Shown: piece by piece, positions 23,527-48,614 of the stretch | Position numbering within the stretch: position 1 is the stretch's first letter | Layout: each line of letters begins with the position of its first letter | From: Candidatus Bruticola sp. | GTDB lineage: Bacteria > Vulcanimicrobiota > Xenobia > Xenobiales > Xenobiaceae | Reading direction: 5' to 3' | Assembly (NCBI GenBank): GCA_051874735.1 | Contig: JBJEGD010000026.1 | Coordinates: 91,452 to 155,451 of the forward strand | DNA length: 64,000 nucleotides | The notes under the pieces: generated by a model | Told to the model about the DNA's origin: nothing | The model's database searches: none | Seen by the model: only the letters and a program-made list of their open reading frames with translations | Made by a program: the position numbers and the translations under genes

Positions 23527-23730
23527 TGTACTTACCTCCATAAGGTAAAATTTTTTTTCTTGCCCCTAGTATCACGTGTACAATTAAAAAAGTAAAGACT
23601 TCTTATAGAAAAAATAATTTTTTTATATATTTGATAAAAATATTAAAACAATAGATAAATATCAGATTAAGAAGCAGAAACAGCTAAGTCCACGTCTTTG
23701 CTGATGCCTGGCAAATTTCATTTAAATATA

Positions 23731-24601: not shown

Positions 24602-24853
24602 AGTGTTTGCCTCCATTAATAAGAGTTTCAGAGCTTTCTCTTATTGAAATTATCAGGGCAACAAAATAGCGCGTAAATATAGAAAGAATAGAGTTAAATA
24701 AGGTACAAGTTAGAGATAATTAAAAAATTAAAAACAAATTTAAAAAGACTGTTTTTAGTATAAAATCTATAAAAATATTGTAAACAAGAGATTAAATTAA
24801 AGGTTAATAATTTAGTTAAAAAGAGCGTAATTTGAAACTAGTGACCATTATTT

Positions 24854-33194: not shown

Positions 33195-33214
33195 AAATGC
33201 GGAGGATAAACAGG

Positions 33215-33688
33215 TTGAAGCATTCAAAGTTTATTAACTGTTTGATTTTAACGGCTGTAGGCGCCGCTCTGCTGCTGTCAGGGGGAGGATGCGCTAAGCG
33301 TTCACTTAAAGTAGGGGTGGTTAATACTGAGAGAATTATCAGGGAAAATCCCAAGTACATGGAATTGAATGTGGTTTTGTCTGATGAGCGGAACAAGTTG
33401 TTCTCGCAAATTCCCAGTAATGTCAACAGCATGTCTGGAGCACAAAAGAAAGCTTTGCAGGAAAAATTAGCTAAAGAGGCTGCTGAGCGTTCCAGTAAAT
33501 TTGACAAGCTTTACAATGAAAGCATGAAAAGCCTGCGTGAAGATATAAAAAAACAGGCTTCAGAAGTTGCTAAAGATAAAAATATCGACTTAGTGGTAGT
33601 TAATACCATAAATTATCCAGTAGTGCTTTATACCAGCGGCGATAATGTCACTTTAGATATTCTTCTCAAAATGGACGGAGCAAAATAA
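33215..33688 (+). CDS. Skp/OmpH-family lipoprotein
   Basis: TTG at 33215 lies 9 nt after GGAGG; the track ATG at 33197 has no RBS. Lipobox LLLSGGGC. It has KVGVVNTERIIRENPKY ... KNIDLVVVNTINYPVVLYTSGDNVTLDIL, a classical OmpH pattern. Confidence 0.75.
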   Translation: MKHSKFINCLILTAVGAALLLSGGGCAKRSLKVGVVNTERIIRENPKYMELNVVLSDERNKLFSQIPSNVNSMSGAQKKALQEKLAKEAAERSSKFDKLYNESMKSLREDIKKQASEVAKDKNIDLVVVNTINYPVVLYTSGDNVTLDILLKMDGAK

Positions 33689-34402
33689 ATGGAACAGGGA
33701 CTCATACATACTAGCGCTTGTATTGATGTCTTCGCCTCTCTTGGAGAGGGATGCCGAGTCGGAGCTATGGCTGTTATTGAAAGTGGAGCCCAAATTGGCT
33801 GCGGAGCTGAAATCGGTCCTAAAGTTTATATCGGACGCAACGTTTCTATCGGTGAAAGAGCTGTTATAAAGTGCGGTGCTGTTATTATGGATGGCGTTGT
33901 TGTTGGCAGAGAAGCGGTAGTCGAGTCGGGGGCTGTTTTGGGAATGGATGGCTTTGGATATGTTTTTGACGGACAAAGCCATCGTAAAATTCAGCAAATA
34001 GGCAATGTTGTCATTGGGCAGGGAGCGAAAATTGGCGCTTGTTCCTGTATAGACAGGGCCGCTTCTGCTTCAACGGTCGTTGGCGATCATACTGAAATAG
34101 GTCATATGGTGATGGTCGGTCATAACAGCAAGATTGGCAGCGGGTGTCGCATTGGTGATCAGAGCGGTTTAACTGGTTCCTCTCTGGTCGGTAACGATTG
34201 TATCATCGGCTCTCAGTGTGGTATAGGTGTGCGTGTTGAACTTGGCGATGGCTGTGTGTTGCTAGATCGAGCCACGGCTATGCGCAAATATGAGCCTGGG
34301 CAGGTTCTGGCCGGACATCCAGGACGACCGGTGGCGGAGGTTCGCCGTGCAGAAGCGGCTTTTAATTTGCTGCCTAAACTTTTAAAAGATTATATTGAGT
34401 AG
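33689..34402 (+). CDS. lpxD: UDP-3-O-acylglucosamine N-acyltransferase, short form (LbH plus C-terminal helix only)
   Basis: It aligns without gaps to the E. coli LpxD catalytic region: IDRAASASTVVGDHTEIGHMVMVGHNSKIG...LTGSS versus [30 protein letters not shown]...MAGSL. The His of the HN motif is present. At 237 aa it has no room for the about 100-aa N-terminal domain, because the upstream gene ends at 33688. Confidence 0.75.
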   Translation: MEQGLIHTSACIDVFASLGEGCRVGAMAVIESGAQIGCGAEIGPKVYIGRNVSIGERAVIKCGAVIMDGVVVGREAVVESGAVLGMDGFGYVFDGQSHRKIQQIGNVVIGQGAKIGACSCIDRAASASTVVGDHTEIGHMVMVGHNSKIGSGCRIGDQSGLTGSSLVGNDCIIGSQCGIGVRVELGDGCVLLDRATAMRKYEPGQVLAGHPGRPVAEVRRAEAAFNLLPKLLKDYIE

Positions 34403-36660: not shown

Positions 36661-37500
36661 ATGTGCAGAGCGCAGCGTACTTTGGCGAAAGAAGTTTCCT
36701 TCGAAGGAGTAGGGATTCATACTGGGAGAGCGAGTCACCTAACTATTAAGCCGGCTCCTGTCGATCACGGTCTCGTTTTTCTTAGTTCTGGAGAGTATAT
36801 CCCTGCTACCTATGAGTACGTTATTTCTACAAAGCGCTCTACAACGATTGGTAAGGGACAGGTCGCGGTAAATACTATCGAGCATTTAATGGCCGCTTTT
36901 GGAGGTCTTTCTGTGGATAATGCTCTTATAGAGATAGAAGGGCCGGAAGTTCCTATTTTAGACGGTTCTGCTTTGCCTTTTTGTCAGGCTATGGAAGAAG
37001 CAGGTATAGTTAATATCAAAGGCAGTGAAGTAGAAGATTATTATCTGAGCGAGCCCATTTTTGCTGCAGAAGGGGACAGTTTAGTTTTGGCTATGCCCGA
37101 TTCCCAATATAATCTTGAAGGAGCTGTCAGCTACAACAGTCCTCAAGTAGGTATTCAGCGATATCGTTACTGCGGATATGACAACTTTGTGACTCATATA
37201 GCTCCTGCTCGTACTTTTGGTTTTTGGTCTGAGGTAAAAACTCTCTTAGAAAACGGATTAGGGCAAGGTGGCGATCTGTCTAATGCTTTAATTTATGATC
37301 GTCCTGGTTTTAATGCTGCAGAAAATCAGCGTTTTGTCAATGAACCGGTGCGTCACAAAATTTTAGATTTAGCTGGTGATATTTGTCTGTTAGGTCGTCC
37401 GCTGTGTGCTTTTGTTTTGGCCGTTCGGGCTGGTCATAAATTGCATGTAGAATTCGTTCGCAAAATCGCTGAGGAGATGAAAAAAAATGCTGAATACTAA
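36661..37500 (+). CDS. lpxC: UDP-3-O-acyl-GlcNAc deacetylase
   Basis: RTLAKEVSFEGVGIHTG, TIEHLMAA, EVPILDGSA and HKILDLAGD motifs. Confidence 0.9.
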   Translation: MCRAQRTLAKEVSFEGVGIHTGRASHLTIKPAPVDHGLVFLSSGEYIPATYEYVISTKRSTTIGKGQVAVNTIEHLMAAFGGLSVDNALIEIEGPEVPILDGSALPFCQAMEEAGIVNIKGSEVEDYYLSEPIFAAEGDSLVLAMPDSQYNLEGAVSYNSPQVGIQRYRYCGYDNFVTHIAPARTFGFWSEVKTLLENGLGQGGDLSNALIYDRPGFNAAENQRFVNEPVRHKILDLAGDICLLGRPLCAFVLAVRAGHKLHVEFVRKIAEEMKKNAEY

Positions 37501-37912
37501 AGATATATTGCACAGGATTAATTACAAAAGTCCTCTTTTTTTTGTTGATATTGTTAACGAGTTAGAGTTTCCTAAAATCTCTGGTTATAAAAATGTGACT
37601 ATGAGCGAGCCCCATTTCGCTGGACATTTCCCAGGCAAACCCATTATGCCTGGAGTACTACAAATGGAAGCTTTGGTACAGATTTGCCGACTTCTCTATA
37701 TAGGGAATGAAGAGGCTCCTATTAAAGTAAAAGAGCTCGATTTAGTTGGAGTTAAAAAATTTAAGTTTAGAACTCCTGTTGTTCCAGGAGATCGCCTCGA
37801 TCTTTATGCTGAAGAAATTGAGCGTAACAACGAAAATATAGTGCTATCTGTTAAAGCTTGCGTTGGAGATAATGTCGCTTGTGAAGGAATACTTTCTTTC
37901 AGTTGGCAATAA
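37487..37912 (+). CDS. fabZ: 3-hydroxyacyl-ACP dehydratase
   Basis: HFPGKPIMPGVLQMEAL motif. It overlaps lpxC by 14 nt. GAGGAG RBS. Confidence 0.9.
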   Translation: MLNTKDILHRINYKSPLFFVDIVNELEFPKISGYKNVTMSEPHFAGHFPGKPIMPGVLQMEALVQICRLLYIGNEEAPIKVKELDLVGVKKFKFRTPVVPGDRLDLYAEEIERNNENIVLSVKACVGDNVACEGILSFSWQ

Positions 37913-38028
37913 AAGGCGAACGCACGACCGTTTGCGGCTAGCTGTAGGAAATTTGCCATATACAGACGAAATTATAAACCGTTTTGTGTTCGCTTTTGCA
38001 TAGAGACAAAAATTGGAGGATAAGCATT

Positions 38029-38967
38029 ATGAAGCCGATTAAAGTTGGCGTGGTCGGCATTGGTAGTATGGGGAAAAACCATGCTCGAGTGTGCGCCGAA
38101 CTACCTCAAATTGAACTTACAGGCATGGTGGATCTCGATGAAGCCAGAGTCGCCCCTTTAGCTCAGCAGTACGGCACACAGTATTATAAAGATTATAAGA
38201 GTCTCTATGGCAAAATCGACGCTGTAGTTATTGTTGCACCTACACCGCTTCACTATCAAATCGCTCAAGATTTTTTGGAACAGGGCGTTCATGTCTTGGT
38301 AGAAAAGCCCATTACTGTAGAGGTAAGCGAGGCTAAACGGTTAGTGACTTCCGCTAAGGAAAAAAATCTTGTTCTGCAGGTAGGTCATTTGGAGCGTTTC
38401 AATCCAGCCGTAATAAAGCTTAAGCAGATGGTGAGCAAACCTGTGTTAATAGAATGCCACCGCCTTTCTGGGCCTACTACTCGCAGTCTCGATGTCGGTA
38501 TTATTTGGGATTTAATGATCCACGATTTTGATATACTTCTCAGTTTATATAAATCTCCAGTAGCCGAAATCCATGCTATGGGGACTTCTATCTATTCTAA
38601 ATTTGAAGATGTAGCTCACGTGCAAATGCGGTTTGAATGTGGGGCTGTAGCCAGTTTGGTAGCTAGTCGCAATTCCGGAGAAAGGAAGCGCAGTCTCAAA
38701 ATTACTGAAGATACCGGACGAGTTTTGTCTCTCGATTTTATTAACCAAACTTTAGTTATTTCTCGTCCTGGCCCCGATGGGCGTCCCCTAGATTTGGAGC
38801 CAGTTCACATCGAGAAAGAGGAACCTCTACGTTTGGAACTCAGCAATTTTGCAGATTGTGTGATTAATCACAAGGAACCTGTTGTATCCGGTGAGGATGG
38901 CAAGCGAGCTTTGGAATTAGCTGTTCACGTTTTGGAGAATATGCAAAAAATTACGCTTTCTAAGTAA
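38029..38967 (+). CDS. Gfo/Idh/MocA-family NAD(P)-dependent oxidoreductase (GnnA-like position)
   Basis: ATG at 38029 follows GGAGG. Rossmann N-terminus IKVGVVGIGSMGKNHA and an EKP motif (LVEKPIT). It lies between fabZ and lpxA. Confidence 0.85.
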   Translation: MKPIKVGVVGIGSMGKNHARVCAELPQIELTGMVDLDEARVAPLAQQYGTQYYKDYKSLYGKIDAVVIVAPTPLHYQIAQDFLEQGVHVLVEKPITVEVSEAKRLVTSAKEKNLVLQVGHLERFNPAVIKLKQMVSKPVLIECHRLSGPTTRSLDVGIIWDLMIHDFDILLSLYKSPVAEIHAMGTSIYSKFEDVAHVQMRFECGAVASLVASRNSGERKRSLKITEDTGRVLSLDFINQTLVISRPGPDGRPLDLEPVHIEKEEPLRLELSNFADCVINHKEPVVSGEDGKRALELAVHVLENMQKITLSK

Positions 38968-39017: not shown

Positions 39018-39827
39018 GTGATTCATTCCAGCGCTATAGTACATCCCGGGGCACGCATCGGTGAGGGAGTAGAAATCGGACCTTTTTCTATTATCGGAGA
39101 AAATGTAGAAATTGGAGACGGAACTAAAATTATGTCTTCTGTCGTCATAGATGGATGGACAACTATAGGCAAAAATAACAAAATTTATCCGGGTGTATCT
39201 ATTGGTCTGGCACCTCAGGATTTCAGTTATAAAGGGCAGCGTTCATTTGTAACTATTGGTGATAATAATGAGTTCCGTGAATATGTGACTATTCATAGGG
39301 CTGCCGATGAAGATGGTATTACTTCTGTGGGTAGCGGCAATCTGCTTATGGCGAATGTACACATCGCTCATAACTGCCATATTGGTAGTCAAATTACTAT
39401 GGCTAATTATGCTGGTTTGGCTGGTCATACTGTAGTAGAAGATCAGGCGGTATTAGGTGGGCTTGTAGGTATCCATCAGCACACCCGCATCGGTCGTTTG
39501 TGTATGGTAGGCGGATGCTCCAAGATAAATAAAGATTTGCCGCCCTTCAGTATTGTCGATGGTAATCCTTGTCGTCTCTTTGGTATGAATTTCCGAGGCA
39601 TGCGGCGCCGTGACATTTCTAAGGAAAGTCGTTTAGCTGTTCATAAAGCTATCAATATTTTGGGCAGTTGTGGACTGACCTTAGACGCCGCTATAGAACG
39701 CATAGACAGTGAGTTGGAGCATACCCCTGAAATTGAACATTTCCTGACTTTCCTGCGCGGTGATTCTCATATGGGAGTTCTCAATAAAGCCGGCAACGTA
39801 GGGGCGAGAGCTCACAGTAACGCTTAA
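39018..39827 (+). CDS. lpxA: acyl-ACP:UDP-GlcNAc O-acyltransferase
   Basis: GTG follows AGAGG. It has an IHSSAIVHPGARIGEGVEIGPFSIIG hexapeptide start, a catalytic-region HIAHNCHIG and a C-terminal helical domain. Confidence 0.9.
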   Translation: MIHSSAIVHPGARIGEGVEIGPFSIIGENVEIGDGTKIMSSVVIDGWTTIGKNNKIYPGVSIGLAPQDFSYKGQRSFVTIGDNNEFREYVTIHRAADEDGITSVGSGNLLMANVHIAHNCHIGSQITMANYAGLAGHTVVEDQAVLGGLVGIHQHTRIGRLCMVGGCSKINKDLPPFSIVDGNPCRLFGMNFRGMRRRDISKESRLAVHKAINILGSCGLTLDAAIERIDSELEHTPEIEHFLTFLRGDSHMGVLNKAGNVGARAHSNA

Positions 39828-39838
39828 TTGGTGCAGCT

Positions 39839-42286
39839 TTGACTGAAAATAGTCAGCAACAATCATCTGCTTATCCTCAGTTGACGGTTGCGATAATCGC
39901 CATAGAGCCTTCTGCCGATCTTCATGGAAGCAATTTGGCTAGGGCTCTTTTGGCGATTAATCCGCATCTAAAACTGGTCGGCGTAGGCGGATCGCATATG
40001 GCCGCGTCGGGAGTCAGTCTGTGGTTAAGGACCACAGACATGGCAGTTATTGGTCCCGGCGGGGCTATTGCTCGTTTGCCTAAATATATATGTTACTATT
40101 TGTACGTGCGCAGGCATTTGCTTAAGGAACATCCTCACCTCAGCATTTTAATAGACTGCCCCGCCGTTAACATGCGTTATGCTGGTCTTTTGACTCGCTA
40201 TGGCTATCATTCTGTTTATTACTTTCCCCCTTCTGCCTGGACAACCAGCGAAGTGCGTCTTAGACAGATTTTTAGCCGCACAGATAGGGTAATTTGTACC
40301 TTCTTGAGCAATGCCGAAAATTATCGCCGTCTGGGTATGGATGTAGATTTCTTCGGCCATCCTCTTATCGATATGCCCGAGTTAGGAATTTCTGCAGAAG
40401 AAGCTAAAAACAAGTTGGGGCTGGTAGGCGAAAATATTTTGGCTTTACTTCCGGGCAGTCGTGCTTCAGAAATAAAGTATCTATTGCCGATTTTTTTAGA
40501 AATAGTTGCTAAGTTGCATCAAGAAATAGAAAATTTGCAGGTACTTGTACCTTGTGCAACTCAGGCGCTTCGCAGGCAAATAGTTGCCTATATGGGGGAT
40601 AGGTTCCCTTATGTGCGTGTTTTAAATGGGCAGTCTCGTTTAGCCCTTTTAGCTTGTCGAGCAGCGTTGATGAGCTCTGGCACAGCTAGCCTGGAAGCTG
40701 CGATATTAGGCGCCCCAATGGTTCTGTCTTATAAACTTTGTCCCTTCGATGCTGTTATAGGTAAGTTCCTGATTTGGAGTGGTTTATTAAAAATTGAGCA
40801 TATCGGGTTGCCCAGTTTGGTCGCTGGACATCGCATTGTTCCAGAGTTTGTTCAAGATGAAGTTTCACCTGAAAATATTATCCCTCATTTGCGCAATTTT
40901 ATGCGAGATACTCCTGAGCGGTGCCAAATAAAACAAGATCTTTTAGATATGAGGAAGTCCATGGGCGCTCCTGGAGTAATTACCAAGATAGCCTCTTCTT
41001 TATATAGTCGCATTGAGAGCAGTGCTGCTGAAAGGATGGCTGAACCTTTCGACATTGTTATAACATCTAATTCTCCTGGAGAGGTGTCCACGTGGGTGCG
41101 ACGCACTGTTGCTCAGTTGGAGGTTAAAAACAAAGGGCAGTTTAGAGTTATAGTAGCGTTAGTTCCATGTCCTTATGCTTCCGGAGCTGAAGCTGAAGTC
41201 GCCGCTTCTCTGCCAGGCGTTTCCATTGTTCTGACGCCTAGTCAGACTGTGCGTTTAATGTGCGGCATGTTCAACGATTTTGAGCTGCGTAAAAAGGGAG
41301 TAGTAGTATTTTTAGGCGGTGATCTTATTCACGCTAAAATTTTGGCTTGGCGTTTAAAATATCGCTCTATAGCCTATGCAGCTAGATACAACAGGCTAAT
41401 CTACTATTTTGATAAAGTCGCTGCTTCAGATATTTCACTGGCCTCTGAATTATTAGAAGCTGGAGTTAATGAAGTTGTTAATATAGGTAATTTAAGTATT
41501 GATGGGGTTATTTCTGAAGTTGATAGGGAAGCAGCTGATAAAGTATCCCGTAGAACTGGCTTGAAGATTGGCATTTTCCCAGGATCGCGTTTTCTGCATA
41601 CTAAGATCGCTCTAGGAGTGTTTTTGCGTGTAGCTGCTCTAATAAAAACGCGTCACCCTGAGGTTGAATTTGTCCTTTCTGTATCGCCTTTTCTTTCCCC
41701 AGCTCGGCTGGAATCGGCACTTTGTAATCCTTTTAGTTTGGGGCTTCCGGTAGCTAAGGGTAAATTGCTCAGTGCTGATCGCATTGCAGTTGAGTGTATG
41801 TATGAAGATGAACAGGCTGCAGGACGCAGTTTTGAAGTTGAAGTTTTGTGGGGCCATCCTTATCAAGCTATTGCAGAAATAGATATGGCACTTACCATTC
41901 CGGGAACGAATACTGGAGAGTTGGGGTGTTGCGGCAAACCTATGGTAGTAGGACTTTCTGCTGATGCTTCCCTGCCCAGAGGAGGTTTGGGCGGCTTATT
42001 TGAAAGGATGCCAGTTTTATCAAAACTTAAGAGTTATTTGCGCTTGCGTTCTTATGCGCGTCACGGTTTCGCTGCGATCCCTAACCGTATTGCTTCTAGA
42101 GCTATCGTTCCTGAAGTTTTAGTAAAAAAAGATACGTCTGTGCTGGCCCAGCCTATTTTAGAGTGGATTGAAACTCCTGAGAAGTACGCCCGTGTTTCCC
42201 AAGATTTAAAAGACACTATGAGAACGACAGAGGGAGCGGGCAAGCGCATGGCTGAGTTGATCCTGGGTTTGGTTGATTCTAAATAA
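39839..42286 (+). CDS. lpxB: lipid-A-disaccharide synthase fused to a second LpxB-related GT-B module
   Basis: TTG start. Residues about 15-395 look like LpxB (IEPSADLHG..., YYFPPSAW, FFGHPLID, LLPGSRASE, GTASLEAAILGAPMV). Residues about 400-815 form a second module (ITSNSPGEVS, IFPGSRFLH, PGTNTGELGCCGKPMVV). Confidence 0.8.
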   Translation: MTENSQQQSSAYPQLTVAIIAIEPSADLHGSNLARALLAINPHLKLVGVGGSHMAASGVSLWLRTTDMAVIGPGGAIARLPKYICYYLYVRRHLLKEHPHLSILIDCPAVNMRYAGLLTRYGYHSVYYFPPSAWTTSEVRLRQIFSRTDRVICTFLSNAENYRRLGMDVDFFGHPLIDMPELGISAEEAKNKLGLVGENILALLPGSRASEIKYLLPIFLEIVAKLHQEIENLQVLVPCATQALRRQIVAYMGDRFPYVRVLNGQSRLALLACRAALMSSGTASLEAAILGAPMVLSYKLCPFDAVIGKFLIWSGLLKIEHIGLPSLVAGHRIVPEFVQDEVSPENIIPHLRNFMRDTPERCQIKQDLLDMRKSMGAPGVITKIASSLYSRIESSAAERMAEPFDIVITSNSPGEVSTWVRRTVAQLEVKNKGQFRVIVALVPCPYASGAEAEVAASLPGVSIVLTPSQTVRLMCGMFNDFELRKKGVVVFLGGDLIHAKILAWRLKYRSIAYAARYNRLIYYFDKVAASDISLASELLEAGVNEVVNIGNLSIDGVISEVDREAADKVSRRTGLKIGIFPGSRFLHTKIALGVFLRVAALIKTRHPEVEFVLSVSPFLSPARLESALCNPFSLGLPVAKGKLLSADRIAVECMYEDEQAAGRSFEVEVLWGHPYQAIAEIDMALTIPGTNTGELGCCGKPMVVGLSADASLPRGGLGGLFERMPVLSKLKSYLRLRSYARHGFAAIPNRIASRAIVPEVLVKKDTSVLAQPILEWIETPEKYARVSQDLKDTMRTTEGAGKRMAELILGLVDSK

Positions 42287-42287
42287 T

Positions 42288-42941
42288 ATGAAAATTCCTA
42301 ATGAAAATTGCCAAAATATTGCTACTCCTTTTATTTTCAAGTGGCGAGGCTTGATTATGGCAGTAGTGACGGCTATCATACTGGCTGCTGCCAAGCCAAC
42401 TTTAGTTACCTGCTGCTGGGGAATTGGCTTTGTACTTTTAGGAGAGCTGTTGCGTTCATGGGCTTTGGGCTGGACTGGAGAACATACACGTAGTCAGGAA
42501 TTAATGGCGTCTTTTTTAGTTACTGGCGGTCCTTATAAATACATACGCAATCCACTGTACTTAGGCAATATTTTAAACGGATTTGGGGTTATGGTTGCTG
42601 CTTCTGGAGCTATGTCGTATTTGGGAACGGCTGCTTTGTGGGCTTTTGGTCTTCTATCTCTTTATATGGTTTATGCTTCATGTATAATCGCTGAAGAAGC
42701 TTTCTTGGCTATGCGTTTTGGTGATCTCTTCTTCCGCTACAGAGCAGTTACGCCGACCATTGTACCGCGTTGGGGAGATTATCTCGATTTTATAAGCAGT
42801 TTTTTCAATTTCTCTTCCTGTACAGATGTTCAATATGAAGGGAGAGGCTTCTTCTCTTGGCAATCTTTAAAATTTGAATATAGTACTTGGGGATGGATAA
42901 TTGCTGTTTGGTCTTGTTTATTTATAAAAGCTTTCATGTAA
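42288..42941 (+). CDS. ICMT/Ste14-like membrane methyltransferase family protein
   Basis: The ATG at 42288 begins immediately after the lpxB stop. The protein is multi-TM and has GPYKYIRNPLYLGNIL, the family signature. Confidence 0.7.
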   Translation: MKIPNENCQNIATPFIFKWRGLIMAVVTAIILAAAKPTLVTCCWGIGFVLLGELLRSWALGWTGEHTRSQELMASFLVTGGPYKYIRNPLYLGNILNGFGVMVAASGAMSYLGTAALWAFGLLSLYMVYASCIIAEEAFLAMRFGDLFFRYRAVTPTIVPRWGDYLDFISSFFNFSSCTDVQYEGRGFFSWQSLKFEYSTWGWIIAVWSCLFIKAFM

Positions 42942-43026: not shown

Positions 43027-44202
43027 TTAAGGCCGCATGGAAATCTCGGTTAAAATTTGAGCCATGCGGGCTGCTCCTCCGGGAGGGCCTAGTCTCTCTT
43101 GGCCGATAGATCCGCGCCGTTGCCGATCAGCTTTGTCTTGCATTAGGCGACATAGAGTTTCGATTATATCGGGATCGTAATCTTCACAAACAATAAGAGC
43201 CTCACCGAGCAGCCCCTTTTGTCTGGCCCTATACCACTTTAAACGAGTCTCTCCGCCTGGTTCATAAGCAACAACAGGAATACCGTGACCAGCCGCTTGT
43301 TCATGTGCTGTGCCCGCCAATCCTAGAGCGACTTGACTGTATTTTAGTACATCAGCTAGATGGCCTTTGATAAGAAAGAACTGAACTTGATACTCCGCCT
43401 TGTTGTCTGCAAGTTTAAGTTCGCTCCAACCCGGATAAGGTGCTTCGTTCATAACAAAACCCGGACAGGCCTGTGCTAACTTTGAGGTATCAATAGATGG
43501 AGCTACGGCAATAAAGGCACAAATTTTCTTATTTAAGCGTTGAGACAGCTGGCAACTTATTTCTAAAAGGCGAGGCAGTACCCTGTAAGTAGCTTGTCTG
43601 CTGCCGGGAAAGAGAGCTAGGCCTATTTCTTTGCTGCTGTCTAGACTGAAGTCCAGTTCTTGAGGAACCAAACCATCCATCATAGCATTACCTACCCAGA
43701 TAGCTTTAACTCCTTTTTGACGCAGACTGGCAGCTGTAGGTTCATCTCGGACAATAGAGCGAACTTTGAAAGTTCTCAGAACCCAAGCTTCTAGAGCTGA
43801 GTAAGGATGATGATAGTCAGATTTAGCCGTGCCAATGAAGGTTATTGGGCGTATACCAGATAGGGCAGCTAGAATAACTGGCCAAAGATCGCCGACAGCG
43901 GCAATGTGATTGAAACGGTGACGATTTGAGCGCAGCCAAAACAGCTGTTTTAAAGTTAAATAGGCTAAGCCGCCGCCAAGATCTTTCCAAAAATTACGCC
44001 AATCTTCTTGAATAAGGCCGCCGCTGGGCATGTCGCTGACAGGGCCGTTTATGGGAGCTATTCCTTTGTACGCTGAGCCTTCTCCAACCAAAGGTAAAGC
44101 TTCTATATCGATTGATTTAGGCAGCTCCTTAATTATCTGGGCAGCTATGGAATCTTCACCGGCTCCGTTAGATACAAGTAAAAGGCGTTGAGGGGCGGGC
44201 AT
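43027..44202 (-). CDS. LpxB-related GT-B glycosyltransferase (lipid-A-disaccharide synthase-related type)
   Basis: ATG at 44202 follows AAGGAGAG. It has LLLVSNGAGEDSIAAQII, LFPGSRQAT and GLAGTAHEQAAGHGIPVV, the same architecture as the second module of the lpxB fusion. Confidence 0.7.
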   Translation of the reverse strand: MPAPQRLLLVSNGAGEDSIAAQIIKELPKSIDIEALPLVGEGSAYKGIAPINGPVSDMPSGGLIQEDWRNFWKDLGGGLAYLTLKQLFWLRSNRHRFNHIAAVGDLWPVILAALSGIRPITFIGTAKSDYHHPYSALEAWVLRTFKVRSIVRDEPTAASLRQKGVKAIWVGNAMMDGLVPQELDFSLDSSKEIGLALFPGSRQATYRVLPRLLEISCQLSQRLNKKICAFIAVAPSIDTSKLAQACPGFVMNEAPYPGWSELKLADNKAEYQVQFFLIKGHLADVLKYSQVALGLAGTAHEQAAGHGIPVVAYEPGGETRLKWYRARQKGLLGEALIVCEDYDPDIIETLCRLMQDKADRQRRGSIGQERLGPPGGAARMAQILTEISMRP

Positions 44203-44234
44203 AATCTCTCCTTTTAAGTTTTTTAGCAGCAAAT

Positions 44235-45080
44235 TTAAGCTAAACTTATCAACTTACAGTGACTTAGCTGTGGATTATCCATATTGTATTCAATTTCATT
44301 TATATGTTTGGCGAATGCACCAGTTTGTACAATAAAAGAACCATTAACTTGACAAGGTGAGTCCAGTTGGGTATGGGTATGGCCTCCTAAAATCCAGGTG
44401 CCTGGCGGCGTATTAACCGCCAATTGCTGATCTCGGTCAAAACCTATGTGACTGATGATAACTAAATTAGTTCTTAGACCTAATTTAGCTGAGCAGCGAT
44501 CAGCTATCTGAGGCAAAGTTGTCTCTGCTTTGAAAAAACGAAAACCAAATATTTTTTCCCATATGGCATTATGAGGGTATTGCACCGGCATGGCTGATAA
44601 AATCAGCAAGGCACAATTTGAGCTCCAAGAGCTGTTAAAAAGCGCCAGACCGGGAATCCAGCGCTCTGAGGATAGTTCTTGCCAGGCCGAGGAGTTACGC
44701 CAGTTAGCAGAACTGCAGTCTATTATTGGTATATCTTGAATTTGCTCGACAAATTCGCGCTGAGTTAAATGACCACTAAGACGTATATCAGACAAATTAG
44801 TACAGATAAGCGGAAAAGAACGCTGTCTAGCTCTTTTGTCTAGAATACGCCTTTGATAATTGAACTCTCGATTGCCCATAGCCATGGCTGCGCAGCCGAC
44901 AGAACTCATTTTATCTAAGTTTGGTTCAAAGTTTTTCCATACTGTGTTAGAACCGATTAGAGCGTCGCCGCTGTCAAAATAAAGGGCTTGACCTGCGGCT
45001 ATAGAGGCCTGGGCCTGGCTTTTGAGCCAAGCCAAAGCCTCGCTGCGTCCGTGCATATCGTTGGTATGATAAATAATCAT
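44235..45080 (-). CDS. UshA-type calcineurin-like metallophosphoesterase (N-domain only, 281 aa)
   Basis: Motifs YHTNDMHGR, DSGDALIGS, GNREF, ISHIG and GGHTH. Arg replaces the usual His of the GNHE motif. Confidence 0.8.
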   Translation of the reverse strand: MIIYHTNDMHGRSEALAWLKSQAQASIAAGQALYFDSGDALIGSNTVWKNFEPNLDKMSSVGCAAMAMGNREFNYQRRILDKRARQRSFPLICTNLSDIRLSGHLTQREFVEQIQDIPIIDCSSANWRNSSAWQELSSERWIPGLALFNSSWSSNCALLILSAMPVQYPHNAIWEKIFGFRFFKAETTLPQIADRCSAKLGLRTNLVIISHIGFDRDQQLAVNTPPGTWILGGHTHTQLDSPCQVNGSFIVQTGAFAKHINEIEYNMDNPQLSHCKLISLA

Positions 45081-45105: not shown

Positions 45106-45678
45106 TCAATTTTTGCTTCGCTGGGAAACTTTTGAGCTTCTTTCCTGAGCTACTTCGGTATAGACTTGACGGTAGCGATCTATTCCTATATATCTACAAA
45201 TTACTATACCGTAACCTATTATCCAACCGACTCCAGCTAGAGAAGCACCACCCAAACATACCCCTAATATTAAACCAATGCATCCGAAAATTAAACTGTT
45301 TAGCATAGGCTTAGAATCTAGTGATATTGAGTAACCTAAAGAAAGCCCAATAATAGCTCCCACTAGTCCGTAGTAACTACCTTTGCCTATATCTGCAGCC
45401 GTGGTTGCAATAGCCAAACTCGCTTTAGCTGCCTGCACAAGTGAATATTCAGACTGGCCAGCATCGATAATGGAGTTCGCTCCCCACAAGAATCCCATCA
45501 TCAGTCCCATGCCGGCGAAGCAGAGGCAGTACAAAGTCCTCTGTTGTTTGGTAAGAAAAGTTACAGACTGTTCTGTATTACTAGTCTTATTCGCGGTAGA
45601 CGATGAATTTTTTTTATCTTGCTTAGCGTTTTTCTTTTCTTTTTTTTTGCTGTCTTTGAGAGACGCCGGATCACTCAT
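45106..45678 (-). CDS. membrane protein with a Lys-rich N-terminus and Gly-zipper TM segments
   Basis: It has KKKEKKNAKQDKKNSS followed by about 4 Gly/Ala-rich hydrophobic segments. It overlaps the upstream gene by 8 nt. Confidence 0.6.
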   Translation of the reverse strand: MSDPASLKDSKKKEKKNAKQDKKNSSSTANKTSNTEQSVTFLTKQQRTLYCLCFAGMGLMMGFLWGANSIIDAGQSEYSLVQAAKASLAIATTAADIGKGSYYGLVGAIIGLSLGYSISLDSKPMLNSLIFGCIGLILGVCLGGASLAGVGWIIGYGIVICRYIGIDRYRQVYTEVAQERSSKVSQRSKN

Positions 45679-46654
45679 GTTTTTTATCTTTGTCCTTCAG
45701 AGATAATTTTGCCAATTTTTTTATTTGCTCCCATTTTTTTAAAGGAAGCTGACGCATCGCAATTTGGCGCATCGATACTTTATGTGCTTGAACGGGATCG
45801 CCGGACCACACTGACTGACCGGCTGGAATATCTTTATCCACGCCCGATCTAGCTGCTACTGTGGCAAAATCGCCGATATGACGCCCTTCTTTTACCAAGC
45901 ATTGGCCGGCGGCTATGGATAATTTTCCAATATAAGCTCTCTCCTGCAGACAGTTTTGAGAAATAATTATAGCCATAGGCTCTATAATAGATTCTTTGTT
46001 AATGCAGGCTAAATTGTCTATGCGCACTCCTTGATGAATAAGTGCTTTCCTGCCTATAAAGCAGCGAGCACCTATTTCAATATCACTTCCCAAAGAAGCT
46101 TCATCTTCGATAATGGTTAGCGGCCCTACTAAACTTGAACCTTCCAATTTTACTTTTTTCCCTAAAGAAACTCCGGGCATCAATTTAGTGTCAGCTCCTA
46201 CAAAGCTGTCGCTATCTATGCTGACATGAGCTTGAATTTGGCAGTTATCGCCAATGGTTACTCCATCTGCTATAACGGCAAAGGGGCCTATATAGGCTGT
46301 AGGAGATATGTTGGCAGAATCGCTTATGCAAGCACTTTCGTGTATCCCCGGCTTAAAGCGAAAAGGAGGATAATACAAATCGAGGAGCTTAGCATAGGCT
46401 ACTCGAGAATTTTTCACTAATATAGCCGGAATATTTGTTTGTATTTTTTCGGGTATAATTACTGCAGCAAAGCCGAGGTGCACTGCTTCTTGTAGTGAAC
46501 TTTCGTCTTCAGCGAAAGTAATTGCCGAGTTTAGATTGTGACTTAAAGCTGCGTCCATACCTGTGACTTCTTTTATAACCAGAGAAGCACTTTCCGGTAT
46601 GTTCAGACGACCTTCAAGATAATCGGCCAGCTCTTTTAAGTTCTTTACCACCAT
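45671..46654 (-). CDS. LpxD-like acyltransferase paralogue (full-length architecture, catalytic His position is Lys)
   Basis: The N-terminus is like the LpxD uridine-binding domain (LKELADYLEGRL...ITFAEDESSLQEA...AVIIPE). It has LbH repeats. The region IDNLACINKESII aligns to E. coli IDNQCQIAHNVVI. Confidence 0.75.
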   Translation of the reverse strand: MVVKNLKELADYLEGRLNIPESASLVIKEVTGMDAALSHNLNSAITFAEDESSLQEAVHLGFAAVIIPEKIQTNIPAILVKNSRVAYAKLLDLYYPPFRFKPGIHESACISDSANISPTAYIGPFAVIADGVTIGDNCQIQAHVSIDSDSFVGADTKLMPGVSLGKKVKLEGSSLVGPLTIIEDEASLGSDIEIGARCFIGRKALIHQGVRIDNLACINKESIIEPMAIIISQNCLQERAYIGKLSIAAGQCLVKEGRHIGDFATVAARSGVDKDIPAGQSVWSGDPVQAHKVSMRQIAMRQLPLKKWEQIKKLAKLSLKDKDKKHE

Positions 46655-47964
46655 AATTCAGGATAATCACTCCAAGTTTCTGCCGGATCTATATCCGCTT
46701 CTTCTAATGTTAGACTGCGTACAGCCAAGGGAACGCACATGGTACGCCCGTTCAAAACTGATTCATAACCTAAACCTATCAAGTCTGCTCCCAAGAGATC
46801 GGTGTAGTTAGCCCTGACAATAAACTGGGGCACTCGGCAAATAGGGCGGCCGTGGTGCAGCAAGAAAGCTGTCTCGCATCGCCTAGCAAACTGTCCCTCT
46901 TTTTTCAGGTGACTAGGAAGAGGAGTCAACCTGTCCAATAAAATGCCAAAGTCTGTCTTAGCGCATAATTCGCCTAAAGAATAGTCTCCGCCTTTGAGAA
47001 TTAAATTAGAATGACCAGGTTTAGGTGGCTGTCCCCAAGGACGCACTGCCGAACCGTTAGGTACAACTCCGCAGGCTCTCGCTGTGCTTAAATCGTAAAT
47101 GCCGCCTACTAGTTCGCCTTGGCGTATTAGTGGTAGTGATGTTTTAGTAATTCCTTCACCGTCAAAAGGTACACTGCCAAAGCCTCTGGGTAAAGACGCA
47201 TCATCCGTTATATTTATGCAAGGGGACAGCCACGGAGAATTTTTGGGTAAAGATTTAAAAAGCGGTGCATCAGCATAAAGCATTTCTTTGGCGAAATCTT
47301 CGAGTAATTTACCGCAGGCGCTCGATGTAAATACGCCAGGAATCGTATTGCTATCTGGCCAGGCCATCTCTGTGGAATGTACGGAACGCCAGGTTAACCT
47401 GCAGAGCATTTCTGCAGGAGAATGCTGAGCAGAAGTACTGTAGATGGCGTCTCCCACAGGTATACCGTCGTTGGAGTTTAAAGTTAGCAGATGTAGAATG
47501 CGGCTGGCACAGCGCTCTCCGCTTCTAGTTGTGATTTTTAACGTATGCTGCAATAACCTGGCACTAAGAGAAAAACGCCTGTTGGGCAACAAAGAAGGAA
47601 GCATAAAATCAAGCCCTTGAATTAAGGCTTTAAAATGCATAATTGAATCTTCGAGTTGTTGCGAAGTTTCAGAGATGTTGGAAACTGAGGTAGGAGAAAT
47701 TAAGCCCTTTTGTGAGAATGAACCGCGCTTGCCGTTGGCCGCACTTTGGGCAGCTTTCTGTAGTAAATCGCTAATGGAAAATTCTCCCTCAGACCAAACA
47801 TAACCAAGACGTCCGTCTATATTTATTCTGAGCCCTAGTCCGGGTTTAAATATACGCTGATCAGGCTGAGCTAAGTTGACTTCTGTATAAACTTCTTCGG
47901 AAACTTCAGCATCTCTGGCCATACCGAGTGCTTTGACCAGCAGTTGATTTGCATAACTGGCCAT
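46645..47964 (-). CDS. TldD/PmbA-fold protein (PmbA-like, no HExxxH)
   Basis: The GSVPFDGEGITKTSLPLIRQGELVGGIYDL block is typical of the family. No HExxxH motif is present anywhere. Confidence 0.8.
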   Translation of the reverse strand: MASYANQLLVKALGMARDAEVSEEVYTEVNLAQPDQRIFKPGLGLRINIDGRLGYVWSEGEFSISDLLQKAAQSAANGKRGSFSQKGLISPTSVSNISETSQQLEDSIMHFKALIQGLDFMLPSLLPNRRFSLSARLLQHTLKITTRSGERCASRILHLLTLNSNDGIPVGDAIYSTSAQHSPAEMLCRLTWRSVHSTEMAWPDSNTIPGVFTSSACGKLLEDFAKEMLYADAPLFKSLPKNSPWLSPCINITDDASLPRGFGSVPFDGEGITKTSLPLIRQGELVGGIYDLSTARACGVVPNGSAVRPWGQPPKPGHSNLILKGGDYSLGELCAKTDFGILLDRLTPLPSHLKKEGQFARRCETAFLLHHGRPICRVPQFIVRANYTDLLGADLIGLGYESVLNGRTMCVPLAVRSLTLEEADIDPAETWSDYPELWW

Positions 47965-47966
47965 AG

Positions 47967-48614
47967 TTATTCTTTATTTCCCAAAATCAGTATATTATAG
48001 GGCAGTACTTCCATATCTGATAGAAGTTTTTGATAATTTGGTTCGCATATAGACGTGCTGTTTTCATTAGGAAGCTTAAGCAACCAAAGTTGCTCCACAG
48101 AGTCAACTTGACTAACTTCGGCGCCATTAATAGCTGCCCACTGTCTGGCTACTCTTCGGCTGTTTTGAGCATCCAGATATAAGAAGCAGTATTGTAGGTT
48201 CTGTTTTGTAACTATTTTTACGAAACTTTCTAATCCGGAAGCAGAGTCCTGAGCAGAAGCTCCCCGCAAATCTAGACATGGAGTTCCTTTAAATACAGAA
48301 GCTTGAGAATGAGTTAATTTTGTTAATAGATCTGATTTCAGATGTTTTGAACTTTGAGAATGATTTTGGGAGGCTTCAGGAAGAGTGCTGTAATTATTTA
48401 AAACAACCTCAGCTTGAGGATCTAAATAGCGTCTTAAGGTGCCCTGCAGTCCTTTAACTAGAAAGGCCGTTGGCAATCCGGGAGCAAAGCGCTCCAGACT
48501 GACATTTAATCTATTTAATTCTTTATCGAAACTAAAGCTTGTGAAACGTACCCCCTCATCATTAAAAGTTTTAGTCAATTTATTTAAAATTTCCTCAGGG
48601 GTATACTTATCCAT
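47967..48614 (-). CDS. hypothetical protein (first gene of the operon)
   Basis: 215-aa ORF with an AAAGGA RBS. It ends 2 nt before the next start. No family recognised. Confidence 0.6.
   Translation of the reverse strand: MDKYTPEEILNKLTKTFNDEGVRFTSFSFDKELNRLNVSLERFAPGLPTAFLVKGLQGTLRRYLDPQAEVVLNNYSTLPEASQNHSQSSKHLKSDLLTKLTHSQASVFKGTPCLDLRGASAQDSASGLESFVKIVTKQNLQYCFLYLDAQNSRRVARQWAAINGAEVSQVDSVEQLWLLKLPNENSTSICEPNYQKLLSDMEVLPYNILILGNKE

What the first reader, a model, noticed from the sequence alone, without database searches (positions are those of the whole stretch)
44235..45080. Candidate non-canonical UDP-2,3-diacylglucosamine pyrophosphatase: UshA-like metallophosphoesterase carrying the LpxH-style GNR motif
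Seen: a 281-aa protein has the calcineurin-like blocks DMHGR, DSGDAL, GNREF, SHIG and GGHTH. The motif that is normally GNHE/D reads GNRE. It resembles only the N-terminal catalytic domain of UshA-type UDP-sugar hydrolases/5'-nucleotidases, and it sits between an LpxD-like and an LpxB-like gene. No lpxH, lpxI or lpxG is recognisable in the window. Established: LpxH is a calcineurin-like phosphoesterase whose corresponding motif is GNRD (E. coli IHGNRDF). Chlamydial LpxG is another member of the superfamily, and UshA cleaves UDP-sugar pyrophosphate bonds. Inference: this protein supplies step 4 of lipid A synthesis.
Basis: partly seen in the sequence, partly recalled or inferred. Interest (0 to 1): 0.66.

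Follow-up and report, generated by a model that had tools for sequence, protein, structure and literature searches.

The report
Candidate fourth-type lipid A pyrophosphatase
A small cytoplasmic metal-dependent phosphoesterase, built like half of a 5'-nucleotidase and carrying the arginine otherwise typical of LpxH, sits inside the lipid A gene cluster of an uncultured gut bacterium and its relatives, and is the best candidate for the enzyme of the lipid A pathway step that has no recognisable gene there.

Summary
ORF 44235-45080 (-) encodes a 281-aa metallophosphoesterase with all five motifs, including GNRE in place of GNHE. The exact protein is a "hypothetical protein" of a Candidatus Bruticola MAG (Vulcanimicrobiota/Eremiobacterota).

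GNR[E/D] is present in all 201 short stand-alone relatives sampled. The roughly 75 long 5'-nucleotidases sampled carry GNH.

In 28 of 29 species-level genomes of its subfamily the gene lies in the lipid A cluster (LpxC-FabZ-GnnA-LpxA-LpxB-...-MPE), directly upstream of an LpxB-related gene (TIGR03492). One contig encodes the two as a single fused protein. More distant members, mostly Armatimonadota, sit in KdsD-KdsC-MPE-ArnT-like operons.

The window holds BamA, Skp, LpxA/B/C/D and LptB/C/F-G, but no lpxH, lpxI, lpxG or other phosphoesterase.

Best reading (about 0.62): an independently evolved UDP-2,3-diacylglucosamine pyrophosphatase. This is untested biochemically, and absence of lpxH/I/G from the rest of the genome could not be checked.

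The parts
44235..45080 (-). GNRE metallophosphoesterase (281 aa): a stand-alone UshA-N-domain-like enzyme and the candidate UDP-2,3-diacylglucosamine pyrophosphatase
44865..44876 (-). Codons for GNRE (res 69-72), with Arg71 replacing the catalytic His of GNHE
   Evidence: Translation. UshA has GNHEFD where the family has GNREF[N/H]. E. coli LpxH has GNRDF.
44631..44783 (-). Approximate position of the insertion specific to the Xenobia-clade members (about 35-45 aa, Trp-rich, residues ~100-150); absent from most of the family
   Evidence: Alignment columns 117-170. Modelled with pLDDT 94-98.
43027..44232 (-). TIGR03492 'lipid-A-disaccharide synthase-related protein', immediately downstream. The likely true start is the ATG at 44201, behind an AAGGAGAG ribosome-binding site
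   Evidence: NCBIfam 273.7 bits, above the 219.2 cutoff. Sequence. Directly downstream of the MPE in 28/29 genomes. Fused to the MPE in P0084/L087.
45106..45678 (-). 190-aa multi-pass membrane protein of unknown family, immediately upstream
   Evidence: Homologue in the same position in 17/29 subfamily loci.
45671..46654 (-). LpxD-like N-acyltransferase (327 aa, with the LpxD N-terminal domain), same strand; its end overlaps the membrane-protein gene by 8 nt
   Evidence: NF002060, 163.7 bits, below cutoff. 25% identity to E. coli LpxD.
46645..47964 (-). PmbA/TldD-family protein, same strand, overlaps the LpxD-like gene by 10 nt
   Evidence: Conserved next to the LpxD-like gene in 9 loci.
42273..42941 (+). 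PEMT/ICMT-family membrane methyltransferase; its best named match is the Leptospira lipid A 1-phosphate methyltransferase LmtA
   Evidence: TIGR04571, E 5.5e-11, far below cutoff. Present in 24/29 loci.
39839..42286 (+). LpxB (N-terminal half) fused to a second, remote LpxB-like domain (815 aa)
   Evidence: TIGR00215, 248.6 bits, above the 190.25 cutoff. 32% identity to E. coli LpxB. The C-terminal half is a separate gene elsewhere.
39018..39827 (+). LpxA
   Evidence: NF003657, 333 bits, above cutoff.
37984..38967 (+). GnnA-like UDP-GlcNAc 3-dehydrogenase (GFO/IDH/MocA family)
37487..37912 (+). FabZ
36661..37500 (+). LpxC
   Evidence: PF03331, 280.7 bits.
33689..34402 (+). Short LpxD (237 aa; left-handed beta-helix core only)
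   Evidence: NF002060, 207 bits, equal to the cutoff. 36% identity to E. coli LpxD residues 100-319.

Best explanation
The gene encodes a cytoplasmic, binuclear-metal UDP-2,3-diacylglucosamine pyrophosphatase. Because a GnnA-like gene lies in the cluster, the substrate may be the GlcN3N analogue. The enzyme would perform step 4 of lipid A synthesis, UDP-diacyl-GlcN + H2O -> lipid X + UMP, in bacteria whose lipid A cluster has no lpxH, lpxI or lpxG.

It arose from the catalytic N-terminal domain of a UshA-type UDP-sugar hydrolase/5'-nucleotidase. It lost the signal peptide and the C-terminal nucleotide-binding domain, and it replaced the His-Asp catalytic dyad (GNHEFD) by GNREF[N/H].

Shown here: the fold, the intact seven metal ligands, the invariant Arg, the cytoplasmic location and the conserved operon position.

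Inferred by analogy with LpxH and UshA: a metal-bridged hydroxide attacks the alpha (UMP) phosphate, while Arg71 salt-bridges the beta phosphate that becomes the 1-phosphate of lipid X.

Also inferred: lipid X is handed to the LpxB-type glycosyltransferases encoded next to it. The TIGR03492 protein directly downstream may act as partner or consumer, and the upstream membrane protein may hold the enzyme at the membrane.
For: 1. Chemistry and fold.
- UshA is annotated as a 5'-nucleotidase/UDP-sugar hydrolase.
- All metal ligands are conserved (D8, H10, D39, N70, H211, H234, H236).

2. The Arg.
- GNRE is invariant in 28 sequences down to 25% identity.
- All 201 short relatives carry GNR[E/D], whereas the roughly 75 long 5'-nucleotidases hit by the same profile carry GNH at this motif.
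- E. coli LpxH has GNRD.
- PMC5016852 reports that this His-to-Arg change is found 'only in LpxH' among metallophosphoesterases, and that the Arg makes a bidentate salt bridge to the lipid X phosphate.

3. Location. There is no signal peptide or transmembrane segment; the DxH motif starts at residue 8. UshA has a 25-aa leader.

4. Context in the window.
- Present: BamA, Skp x2, short LpxD, LpxC, FabZ, GnnA, LpxA, LpxB, methyltransferase, TIGR03492, MPE, LpxD-like, LptC, LptB, LptF/G.
- Absent: any other Metallophos protein, LpxI, LpxK, WaaA.
- The MPE is the only hydrolase candidate. The other unknown protein of the cluster (614 aa) has a signal peptide.

5. Conserved synteny.
- Of 29 species-level genomes of the subfamily (Vulcanimicrobiota, UBP9 and others), 28 have TIGR03492 directly downstream and 28 have lpx genes in the flanks.
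- Gene overlaps (MPE/TIGR03492 in L001 and L003) indicate translational coupling.
- Another divergent member follows lpxB with a 4-nt overlap.

6. Gene fusion. P0084 (650 aa) is MPE fused to TIGR03492, sitting in LpxC-FabZ-GnnA-LpxA-LpxB-PEMT-[fusion]-LptC.

7. Distant members lie in KdsD-KdsC-MPE-PMT_2(ArnT-like)-GT2 operons.

8. Precedent and gap.
- The metallophosphoesterase superfamily has produced UDP-DAGn hydrolases twice, LpxH and LpxG (PMC4807358).
- A 2025 review still lists only LpxH, LpxI and LpxG (PMC12444477).
- The cultured relative Vulcanimicrobium alpinus has an outer membrane and abundant 3-OH fatty acids (PMC9758169).
Against: - There is no biochemical or genetic test.
- Absence of lpxH/lpxI/lpxG from the rest of the genome was not testable. 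Only 64 kb of this genome, and about 20 kb per related genome, were available.
- The basal family has no obvious acyl-chain-binding cap like the helical insertion domain of LpxH. The insertion seen here is restricted to the Xenobia clade, so how two acyl chains are accommodated is unexplained.
- The Arg is suggestive, not diagnostic. The LpxH paralogue LpxH2 is thought to have another substrate.
- In three Armatimonadota genomes a GNRE member is paired with a separate 5'-nucleotidase C-domain gene, so part of the family may still act on soluble nucleotides.
- In most Armatimonadota the gene is next to Kdo and ArnT-like genes rather than lpxA-lpxB, which allows other LPS-related roles.
- The fusion rests on a single metagenomic contig, and an assembly frameshift could have created it.
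Confidence: 0.62

Rival explanations
1. It is a lipid A/LPS-pathway phosphoesterase, but not the canonical step-4 enzyme. One option is that it works with the TIGR03492 glycosyltransferase on a later intermediate, cleaving UMP or UDP from a UDP-linked disaccharide made by condensing two UDP-diacyl-GlcN molecules. Another is that it removes or trims a phosphate or pyrophosphate of a lipid A precursor on the cytoplasmic face.
For: - The pairing is strictest with TIGR03492 (28/29 genomes plus a fusion), not with LpxB itself.
- Three LpxB-like proteins in one cluster suggest non-canonical glycosyl transfers.
- In Armatimonadota the gene sits with ArnT-like and GT2 genes, which in other bacteria decorate lipid A phosphates.
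- No LpxK or WaaA is in the cluster, which resembles the reduced cyanobacterial pathway (PMC3087551).
Against: - Known lipid A 1- and 4'-phosphatases are membrane PAP2 enzymes that act at the periplasmic face. This protein is soluble and cytoplasmic.
- A true LpxB (TIGR00215 above cutoff) needs lipid X as its acceptor, and no other enzyme in the cluster can make it.
- The LmtA-like methyltransferase suggests that the 1-phosphate is retained.
Confidence: 0.2
2. It is a cytoplasmic hydrolase of soluble UDP-sugars or nucleotides, i.e. a trimmed UshA. Its role would be to tune or recycle nucleotide-sugar pools (UDP-GlcNAc, UDP-GlcNAc3N, UMP/UDP by-products) for envelope synthesis. It would not handle the lipid substrate itself.
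For: - The closest characterised relatives are UDP-sugar hydrolases and 5'-nucleotidases.
- There is no evident lipid-binding cap in the basal family.
- Three members are encoded next to a separate 5'-nucleotidase C-terminal, base-binding domain.
- Source annotations call relatives '5'-nucleotidase / UDP-sugar diphosphatase'. These names are automatic.
Against: - An unregulated cytoplasmic UDP-sugar hydrolase would waste lipid A and peptidoglycan precursors.
- The substrate-binding C-domain and the His-Asp dyad used by 5'-nucleotidases are both missing.
- Such strict operon linkage, and a fusion to an LpxB-like lipid glycosyltransferase, is not expected for a pool-tuning enzyme.
Confidence: 0.1
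3. It is a catalytically dead or purely structural metallophosphoesterase-fold subunit, for example a scaffold for the LpxB-like proteins. On this reading the loss of the catalytic His reflects loss of activity.
For: Both residues of the UshA His117-Asp120 dyad are replaced. The window protein falls below the Pfam Metallophos cutoff.
Against: - All seven metal ligands are conserved over sequences as low as 25% identical. That is not expected in a pseudo-enzyme.
- LpxH is fully active with the same His-to-Arg change.
Confidence: 0.03

Closest known systems
UshA / 5'-nucleotidase family (E. coli UshA, human CD73, T. thermophilus 5'-NT, SoxB): N-terminal metallophosphoesterase domain
   Same: - The metal-ligand set and motif order are the same.
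- UshA cleaves the pyrophosphate of UDP-sugars, which is the same bond type.
   Different: - No signal peptide, so the protein is cytoplasmic rather than periplasmic or extracellular.
- No C-terminal 5_nucleotid_C substrate-binding domain.
- The catalytic dyad GNHEFD is replaced by GNREF[N/H].
- The last motif is HTH rather than HSQ.
- The gene is embedded in lipid A/LPS operons.
LpxH (UDP-2,3-diacylglucosamine diphosphatase of beta/gamma-proteobacteria)
   Same: - Both belong to the metallophosphoesterase superfamily and are cytoplasmic.
- Both have Arg in place of the GNH His (GNRD vs GNRE).
- The proposed reaction and mechanism are identical.
   Different: - It lacks LpxH's four-helix insertion domain, which forms the acyl-chain chamber.
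- The Arg is therefore convergent.
LpxG (Chlamydia UDP-diacylglucosamine hydrolase, Ct461)
   Same: It is another independently recruited metallophosphoesterase doing step 4 in a lineage that lacks lpxH and lpxI. It was discovered because of the same kind of pathway gap (PMC4807358).
   Different: LpxG keeps the canonical GNHD, has the GDXXDR motif and carries an N-terminal transmembrane helix. The protein here has GNRE and no transmembrane helix, and it belongs to the 5'-nucleotidase branch.
LpxI (DUF1009; alpha-proteobacteria, diderm Firmicutes)
   Same: The pathway step is the same. In diderm Firmicutes lpxI sits inside the lpx cluster (lpxACDIBK; PMC5007114), as this gene does here.
   Different: The fold is unrelated and LpxI attacks the other phosphate. 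There is no Pfam LpxI match anywhere in the window.

Membership tests
LpxH | Sequence membership (NCBIfam/Pfam-level similarity to LpxH) | tested here: not met
   No LpxH model among the NCBIfam hits. BLASTP to E. coli LpxH gives E 0.017, covering the GHTH motif only. A phmmer search with E. coli LpxH found 0 hits in the window and 85 loci.
LpxH | Arg replacing His in the GNH[D/E] motif | tested here: met
   GNRE at residues 69-72, invariant in the family. LpxH has GNRD.
LpxH | Helical insertion (cap) domain that forms the acyl-chain cavity | tested here: not met
   [not shown]
LpxH / LpxG / LpxI (functional class) | Hydrolysis of UDP-2,3-diacyl-GlcN to lipid X + UMP; complementation of an lpxH depletion | not testable with these tools
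   Needs an enzyme assay and genetics.
LpxG | Canonical DXH...GDXXDR...GNHD motifs plus an N-terminal transmembrane helix | tested here: not met
   The motif is GNRE, the second motif is DSGDAL, and there is no N-terminal hydrophobic segment.
LpxI | LpxI/DUF1009 domains | tested here: not met
   No such Pfam hit for this ORF or any other ORF of the window.
UshA / bifunctional 5'-nucleotidase family | N-terminal metallophosphoesterase domain of the 5'-nucleotidase type | tested here: met
   [not shown]
UshA / bifunctional 5'-nucleotidase family | C-terminal 5_nucleotid_C substrate-binding domain (PF02872) | tested here: not met
   The protein ends about 45 residues after GGHTH, and no PF02872 hit was found. 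All 201 short relatives are under 330 aa.
UshA / bifunctional 5'-nucleotidase family | Catalytic His-Asp dyad in GNHEFD | tested here: not met
   The window protein has GNREFN, and the family has GNREF[N/H].
UshA / bifunctional 5'-nucleotidase family | Secreted or periplasmic location (signal peptide) | tested here: not met
   The N-terminus is MIIYHTNDMHG, whereas UshA has a 25-aa leader.
Calcineurin-like metallophosphoesterase superfamily (PF00149) | Seven metal-ligand residues in five motifs; beta-alpha-beta-alpha-beta sandwich fold | tested here: met
   D8, H10, D39, N70, H211, H234 and H236 are conserved. The fold is confirmed. The Pfam score is 19.6 bits, below the 21.5 cutoff, for this protein and 36.4 bits for a relative.

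The most novel reading that the evidence does not exclude
The metallophosphoesterase and the TIGR03492 LpxB-derived protein form a two-part enzyme, fused in some organisms. In it, a glycosyltransferase-fold domain that binds UDP-2,3-diacylglucosamine has replaced the C-terminal substrate-binding domain of 5'-nucleotidases. That domain would present the lipid-linked nucleotide sugar to the dimetal site, and perhaps channel lipid X straight into disaccharide formation. This would be a new architecture for step 4 of lipid A synthesis. It would be shared by several little-studied diderm phyla (Vulcanimicrobiota/Eremiobacterota, UBP9, part of Armatimonadota), and it would assign a function to TIGR03492, which is also found in cyanobacteria.
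Probability: 0.15. Interest if true: 0.85.

Novelty: new variant of a known kind. Interest (0 to 1): 0.7.

Why it matters
Step 4 of the Raetz pathway is the only step known to be carried out by non-homologous enzymes: LpxH, LpxI and LpxG. Several diderm lineages outside the Proteobacteria have no recognisable gene for it.

A fourth, independently recruited enzyme would close that gap for Vulcanimicrobiota/Eremiobacterota, UBP9 and probably Armatimonadota. It would also improve LPS-pathway annotation in metagenomes, where these proteins are currently named 'hypothetical', 'metallophosphatase' or '5'-nucleotidase'.

The case would be a clear example of convergent active-site evolution. The same His-to-Arg switch would have arisen twice in one superfamily for the same pyrophosphate-lipid substrate.

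The strict coupling to the uncharacterised LpxB paralogue TIGR03492 gives a first functional lead for that family.

LpxH is an antibiotic target, so knowing which organisms use a different enzyme bears on the spectrum of LpxH inhibitors.

The hypothesis can be tested directly with the E. coli lpxH-depletion complementation that was used to find LpxG.

Tried and rejected
- **Genome-wide check for lpxH/lpxI/lpxG.** This was not possible, because only the 64-kb window and flanks of up to 10 kb in related genomes can be read. I scanned all real ORFs of the window with Pfam or NCBIfam. I also ran E. coli LpxH by phmmer against every ORF of the window and 85 loci, about 1.3 Mb, and found nothing.
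- **No LpxI or LpxG query sequence.** Neither could be obtained from the available collections, so those two rest on the Pfam scans only.
- **Literature.** Searches for this family, for TIGR03492 and for LpxH in Armatimonadetes or Eremiobacterota found no description of such an enzyme.
- **Promoter/terminator scan of 42.8-48.9 kb.** Counts equal the shuffled expectation, so it gives no information on operon boundaries.
- **Rfam scan of the window.** No hits.
- **Other step-4 candidate in the cluster.** I considered the conserved 614-aa unknown protein of the cluster. I rejected it because it has a clear signal peptide.
- **Is the Xenobia-specific insertion an LpxH-like cap?** This cannot be decided.
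- **Last homologue search.** I considered using it on TIGR03492 to reach cyanobacteria. I judged that close relatives would fill the 120 listed rows, so I did not spend it.
Full report

The minus-strand ORF 44235-45080 starts with ATG and encodes 281 aa. It contains DMHGR, DSGDAL, GNREF, SHIG and GGHTH exactly as reported. Translating 44865-44876 (-) gives GNRE.

The identical sequence is recorded at NCBI as a hypothetical protein of a 'Candidatus Bruticola sp.' MAG. That genus belongs to the class Xenobia of the phylum Vulcanimicrobiota, formerly Eremiobacterota.

A single-sequence search found 69 relatives. A profile search found 691 at E<=1e-20. An exhaustive profile search of 1.8 billion representatives found 1,744 at E<=1e-30. 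The gene is therefore real and belongs to a sizeable, unnamed family.

**2. What kind of protein is it?**

- *Sequence.* The protein hits only partial N-terminal regions of UshA, Nt5e, SoxB and CpdB models, far below their cutoffs. It falls just under Pfam's Metallophos threshold. PDB sequence hits are to UshA residues 44-119.
- *Model.* An AlphaFold2 model built on a 28-sequence alignment is very confident (pLDDT 95.8, pTM 0.94).
- *Relation to LpxH.* BLASTP against E. coli LpxH gives only the GHTH motif, E 0.017. The protein is thus a stand-alone UshA-type catalytic domain. It is not an LpxH or LpxG orthologue.

Compared with UshA, the protein differs in three ways:
- It lacks the 25-residue signal peptide.
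- It lacks the whole C-terminal 5_nucleotid_C domain.
- It replaces both residues of the catalytic dyad, GNHEFD becoming GNREFN.

It keeps all seven metal ligands: D8, H10, D39, N70, H211, H234 and H236. The first beta-strand begins at residue 2, so the protein must be cytoplasmic.

**3. Is the Arg meaningful?**

In the 28-sequence alignment, which reaches down to 25% identity, G69-N70-R71-E72 is invariant. Among all proteins retrieved by the profile searches, the split is clean:
- Every short (under 330 aa) stand-alone protein carries GNR[E/D]. That was 137 at first count and 201 after the second search.
- Every long multidomain 5'-nucleotidase carries GNH at this motif.

E. coli LpxH reads FIHGNRDF. 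The P. aeruginosa LpxH structure paper states that among metallophosphoesterases this His is replaced by Arg 'only in LpxH'. [quoted passage not shown] LpxG keeps GNHD (PMC4807358).

The family here has therefore acquired the LpxH-type substitution independently, on a different branch of the superfamily.

**4. Genomic context in the window**

Pfam and NCBIfam annotation of all substantial ORFs shows an outer-membrane/LPS supercluster. Plus strand:

| Coordinates | Gene |
|---|---|
| 26887-29979 | BamA |
| 30176-31171 and 33197-33688 | two Skp |
| 33689-34402 | short LpxD |
| 34614-36458 | secreted 614-aa unknown protein |
| 36661-37500 | LpxC |
| 37487-37912 | FabZ |
| 37984-38967 | GnnA-like dehydrogenase |
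| 39018-39827 | LpxA |
| 39839-42286 | LpxB fused to a second LpxB-like domain |
| 42273-42941 | PEMT/LmtA-like methyltransferase |

Minus strand, converging on these genes:

| Coordinates | Gene |
|---|---|
| 47967-48614 | unknown protein |
| 46645-47964 | PmbA/TldD-like |
| 45671-46654 | LpxD-like |
| 45106-45678 | 190-aa membrane protein |
| 44235-45080 | the metallophosphoesterase (MPE) |
| 43027-44232 | TIGR03492 'lipid-A-disaccharide synthase-related protein' |

LptC, LptB and LptF/G follow at 51-54 kb.

Within the minus-strand group the genes overlap or lie 25-35 nt apart, and a strong ribosome-binding site precedes the ATG at 44201.

Steps 1, 2, 3 and 5 of the Raetz pathway are thus all encoded here. 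Step 4 is not: there is no second Metallophos protein and no LpxI domain (same calls), and no LpxH-like ORF. LpxK and WaaA are also absent from the window. The only cytoplasmic hydrolase in the cluster is the MPE. The 614-aa unknown has a signal peptide.

**5. Is the linkage conserved?**

A scan of one genome per GTDB species found 168 genomes with a GNRE relative, and 80 loci were retrieved. I searched the ORFs of all loci with the window's cluster proteins.

*Subfamily A.* The 29 closest species-level genomes (L006-L034, about 28-79% identity) form one subfamily. They are labelled Vulcanimicrobiota or Eremiobacteraeota, UBP9, rumen and gut MAGs, and a few probably mislabelled bins.
- 28 have TIGR03492 immediately downstream, and 28 have lpx genes in the available flanks.
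- 24 have LpxB, 22 LpxA, 19 LpxC, 24 the methyltransferase and 17 the small membrane protein.
- The usual order is LpxC-FabZ-GnnA-LpxA-LpxB-(LpxB-like)-PEMT-(membrane protein)-MPE-TIGR03492. In L001 and L003 the MPE/TIGR03492 stop and start codons overlap.
- A 650-aa protein (P0084) is a natural fusion of the MPE (res 1-230) with TIGR03492 (res 248-645). It lies in LpxC-FabZ-GnnA-LpxA-LpxB-PEMT-[fusion]-LptC. This is one contig only.
- Another divergent member follows lpxB with a 4-nt overlap.

*Subfamily B.* The remaining 51 loci (24-29% identity) are mostly Armatimonadota and are not in the lpxA-lpxB cluster.
- 38 of the 51 have at least one of three neighbours: KdsD (SIS+CBS), KdsC (HAD) immediately upstream, or a PMT_2/ArnT-like glycosyltransferase, often followed by a GT2, downstream.
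- Three have a separately encoded 5'-nucleotidase C-terminal domain upstream.
- A few have uninformative neighbours.

**6. Most likely mechanism**

*Shown.* The protein is a cytoplasmic dimetal phosphoesterase of the UDP-sugar-hydrolase lineage. It has an LpxH-like Arg next to the metal-binding Asn. It is co-transcribed with, and once fused to, LpxB-type lipid glycosyltransferases, in a cluster that otherwise lacks step 4.

*Inferred.*
- It hydrolyses UDP-2,3-diacyl-GlcN to UMP and lipid X. Given the GnnA-like gene, the substrate may be the GlcN3N analogue.
- The metal-bridged hydroxide attacks the alpha phosphate, as in LpxH, LpxG and UshA.
- Arg71 neutralises the beta phosphate that remains on lipid X.
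- Lipid X is then used by LpxB and/or the TIGR03492 protein.
- The LmtA-like methyltransferase suggests that a 1-phosphate is kept in the final lipid A. This is a weak family-level hit, and the LmtA function is taken from the NCBIfam model name.
- The cultured relative Vulcanimicrobium alpinus has an outer membrane and 3-hydroxy iso-C13/C14 fatty acids (PMC9758169), consistent with lipid A synthesis in this phylum.

*Unexplained.* It is not clear where the two acyl chains bind, because the basal family has no cap like LpxH's. The Xenobia-clade proteins, including this one, carry a Trp-rich insertion of about 35-45 residues (about res 100-150) that is modelled confidently. Its position relative to the active site could not be inspected.

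A speculative solution is that the LpxB-derived TIGR03492 protein plays the role of the lost 5'-nucleotidase C-domain and presents the substrate.

**7. Rivals**

- (a) An LPS-pathway phosphoesterase acting on another intermediate together with TIGR03492: about 0.2.
- (b) A soluble UDP-sugar or nucleotide hydrolase: about 0.1. The missing substrate-binding domain and dyad argue against it, as does the strict operon linkage.
- (c) A dead enzyme: about 0.03. The conserved metal ligands argue against it.

**8. Comparison with what is known, and novelty**

A 2025 review still lists only LpxH, LpxI and LpxG for this step (PMC12444477). Opiyo et al. noted lineages with lpxA, lpxC, lpxD and lpxB but no lpxH (PMC3087551). 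Diderm Firmicutes use lpxI inside their cluster (PMC5007114).

No paper in the searchable library describes this family or TIGR03492. Database names for relatives are generic.

If the prediction holds, this is a fourth, independently evolved class of a known enzyme activity within a known superfamily. It would be a new variant of a known kind, not a new kind of system.

**9. Limits**

- There is no biochemical evidence.
- Absence of lpxH, lpxI and lpxG from the rest of the genome could not be examined.
- The fusion is a single metagenomic contig.
- MAG taxonomic labels are partly unreliable (for example 'Burkholderiales', 'Selenomonadaceae' and 'Chloroflexota' bins that carry the same cluster).

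Noticed in passing
window 39839-42286 (+); compare L001 6578-8913 and L003 6549-8955: LpxB is an 815-aa fusion. The N-terminal half is a true LpxB (32% identity to E. coli LpxB, E 1e-50). The C-terminal half is a remote LpxB paralogue that is a separate 387-419 aa gene in other phyla. Together with TIGR03492, the cluster encodes three LpxB-like proteins but no LpxK or WaaA.
   Followed up: partly
window 33689-34402 (+) and 45671-46654 (-): There are two LpxD-like genes. One is a 237-aa version with only the beta-helix core (36% identity to E. coli LpxD 100-319), in the classical position after Skp. The other is a more divergent 327-aa version that retains the LpxD N-terminal domain. With the GnnA-like gene this may reflect a GlcN3N-based, all-amide lipid A.
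   Followed up: partly
window 34614-36458 (+): A 614-aa protein with a clear signal peptide and no family assignment. It is conserved between the short LpxD and LpxC in 15 of 29 related clusters. It is an unknown envelope component of this LPS cluster.
   Followed up: partly
window 48828-50597 (-): A 589-aa protein with about seven tandem proline-rich repeats (GYPQSAPMPAGTPGGRPPQPRPMQT), followed by a TPR region and a predicted membrane segment.
   Followed up: no
window 23254-23541, 23799-24071, 24329-24616 (-): Three tandem, nearly identical small genes (90-95 aa) that share the C-terminal sequence AAQMTASDLQQAQTIYTQMQADAQKQQMERW...KWDEYIRS. They lie in an otherwise ORF-poor 1.8-kb stretch. 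Function unknown.
   Followed up: no
L087 8144-10096 (protein P0084): A natural single-ORF fusion of the GNRE phosphoesterase with the TIGR03492 LpxB-related protein, inside an lpx cluster that ends with LptC. It is a single metagenomic contig (SRR22388351).
   Followed up: partly
L078 6304-7026, L080 2006-2764, L070 8982-9737: In three Armatimonadota genomes a stand-alone 5'-nucleotidase C-terminal domain gene (PF02872) lies directly upstream of the GNRE phosphoesterase. This is a 'split' 5'-nucleotidase arrangement with the domain order reversed.
   Followed up: partly
L035-L085, e.g. L059 8307-13187 and L092 6460-10606: In Armatimonadota the family sits in a recurrent KdsD-KdsC-MPE-PMT_2(ArnT-like)-GT2 operon. 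This suggests a link between Kdo supply, this phosphoesterase and a lipid A/core glycosylation module.
   Followed up: partly
window 44631-44783 (-), residues ~100-150 of the protein: The Xenobia-clade members carry a Trp-rich insertion of about 35-45 residues that is absent from the rest of the family and is predicted with high confidence. It may be a membrane-interface or lipid-binding element.
   Followed up: no
window 42273-42941 (+): A PEMT/ICMT-family membrane methyltransferase whose best named match is the Leptospira lipid A 1-phosphate methyltransferase LmtA (weak hit). It is conserved in 24 of 29 related clusters, hinting at a methylated lipid A phosphate in these phyla.
   Followed up: no
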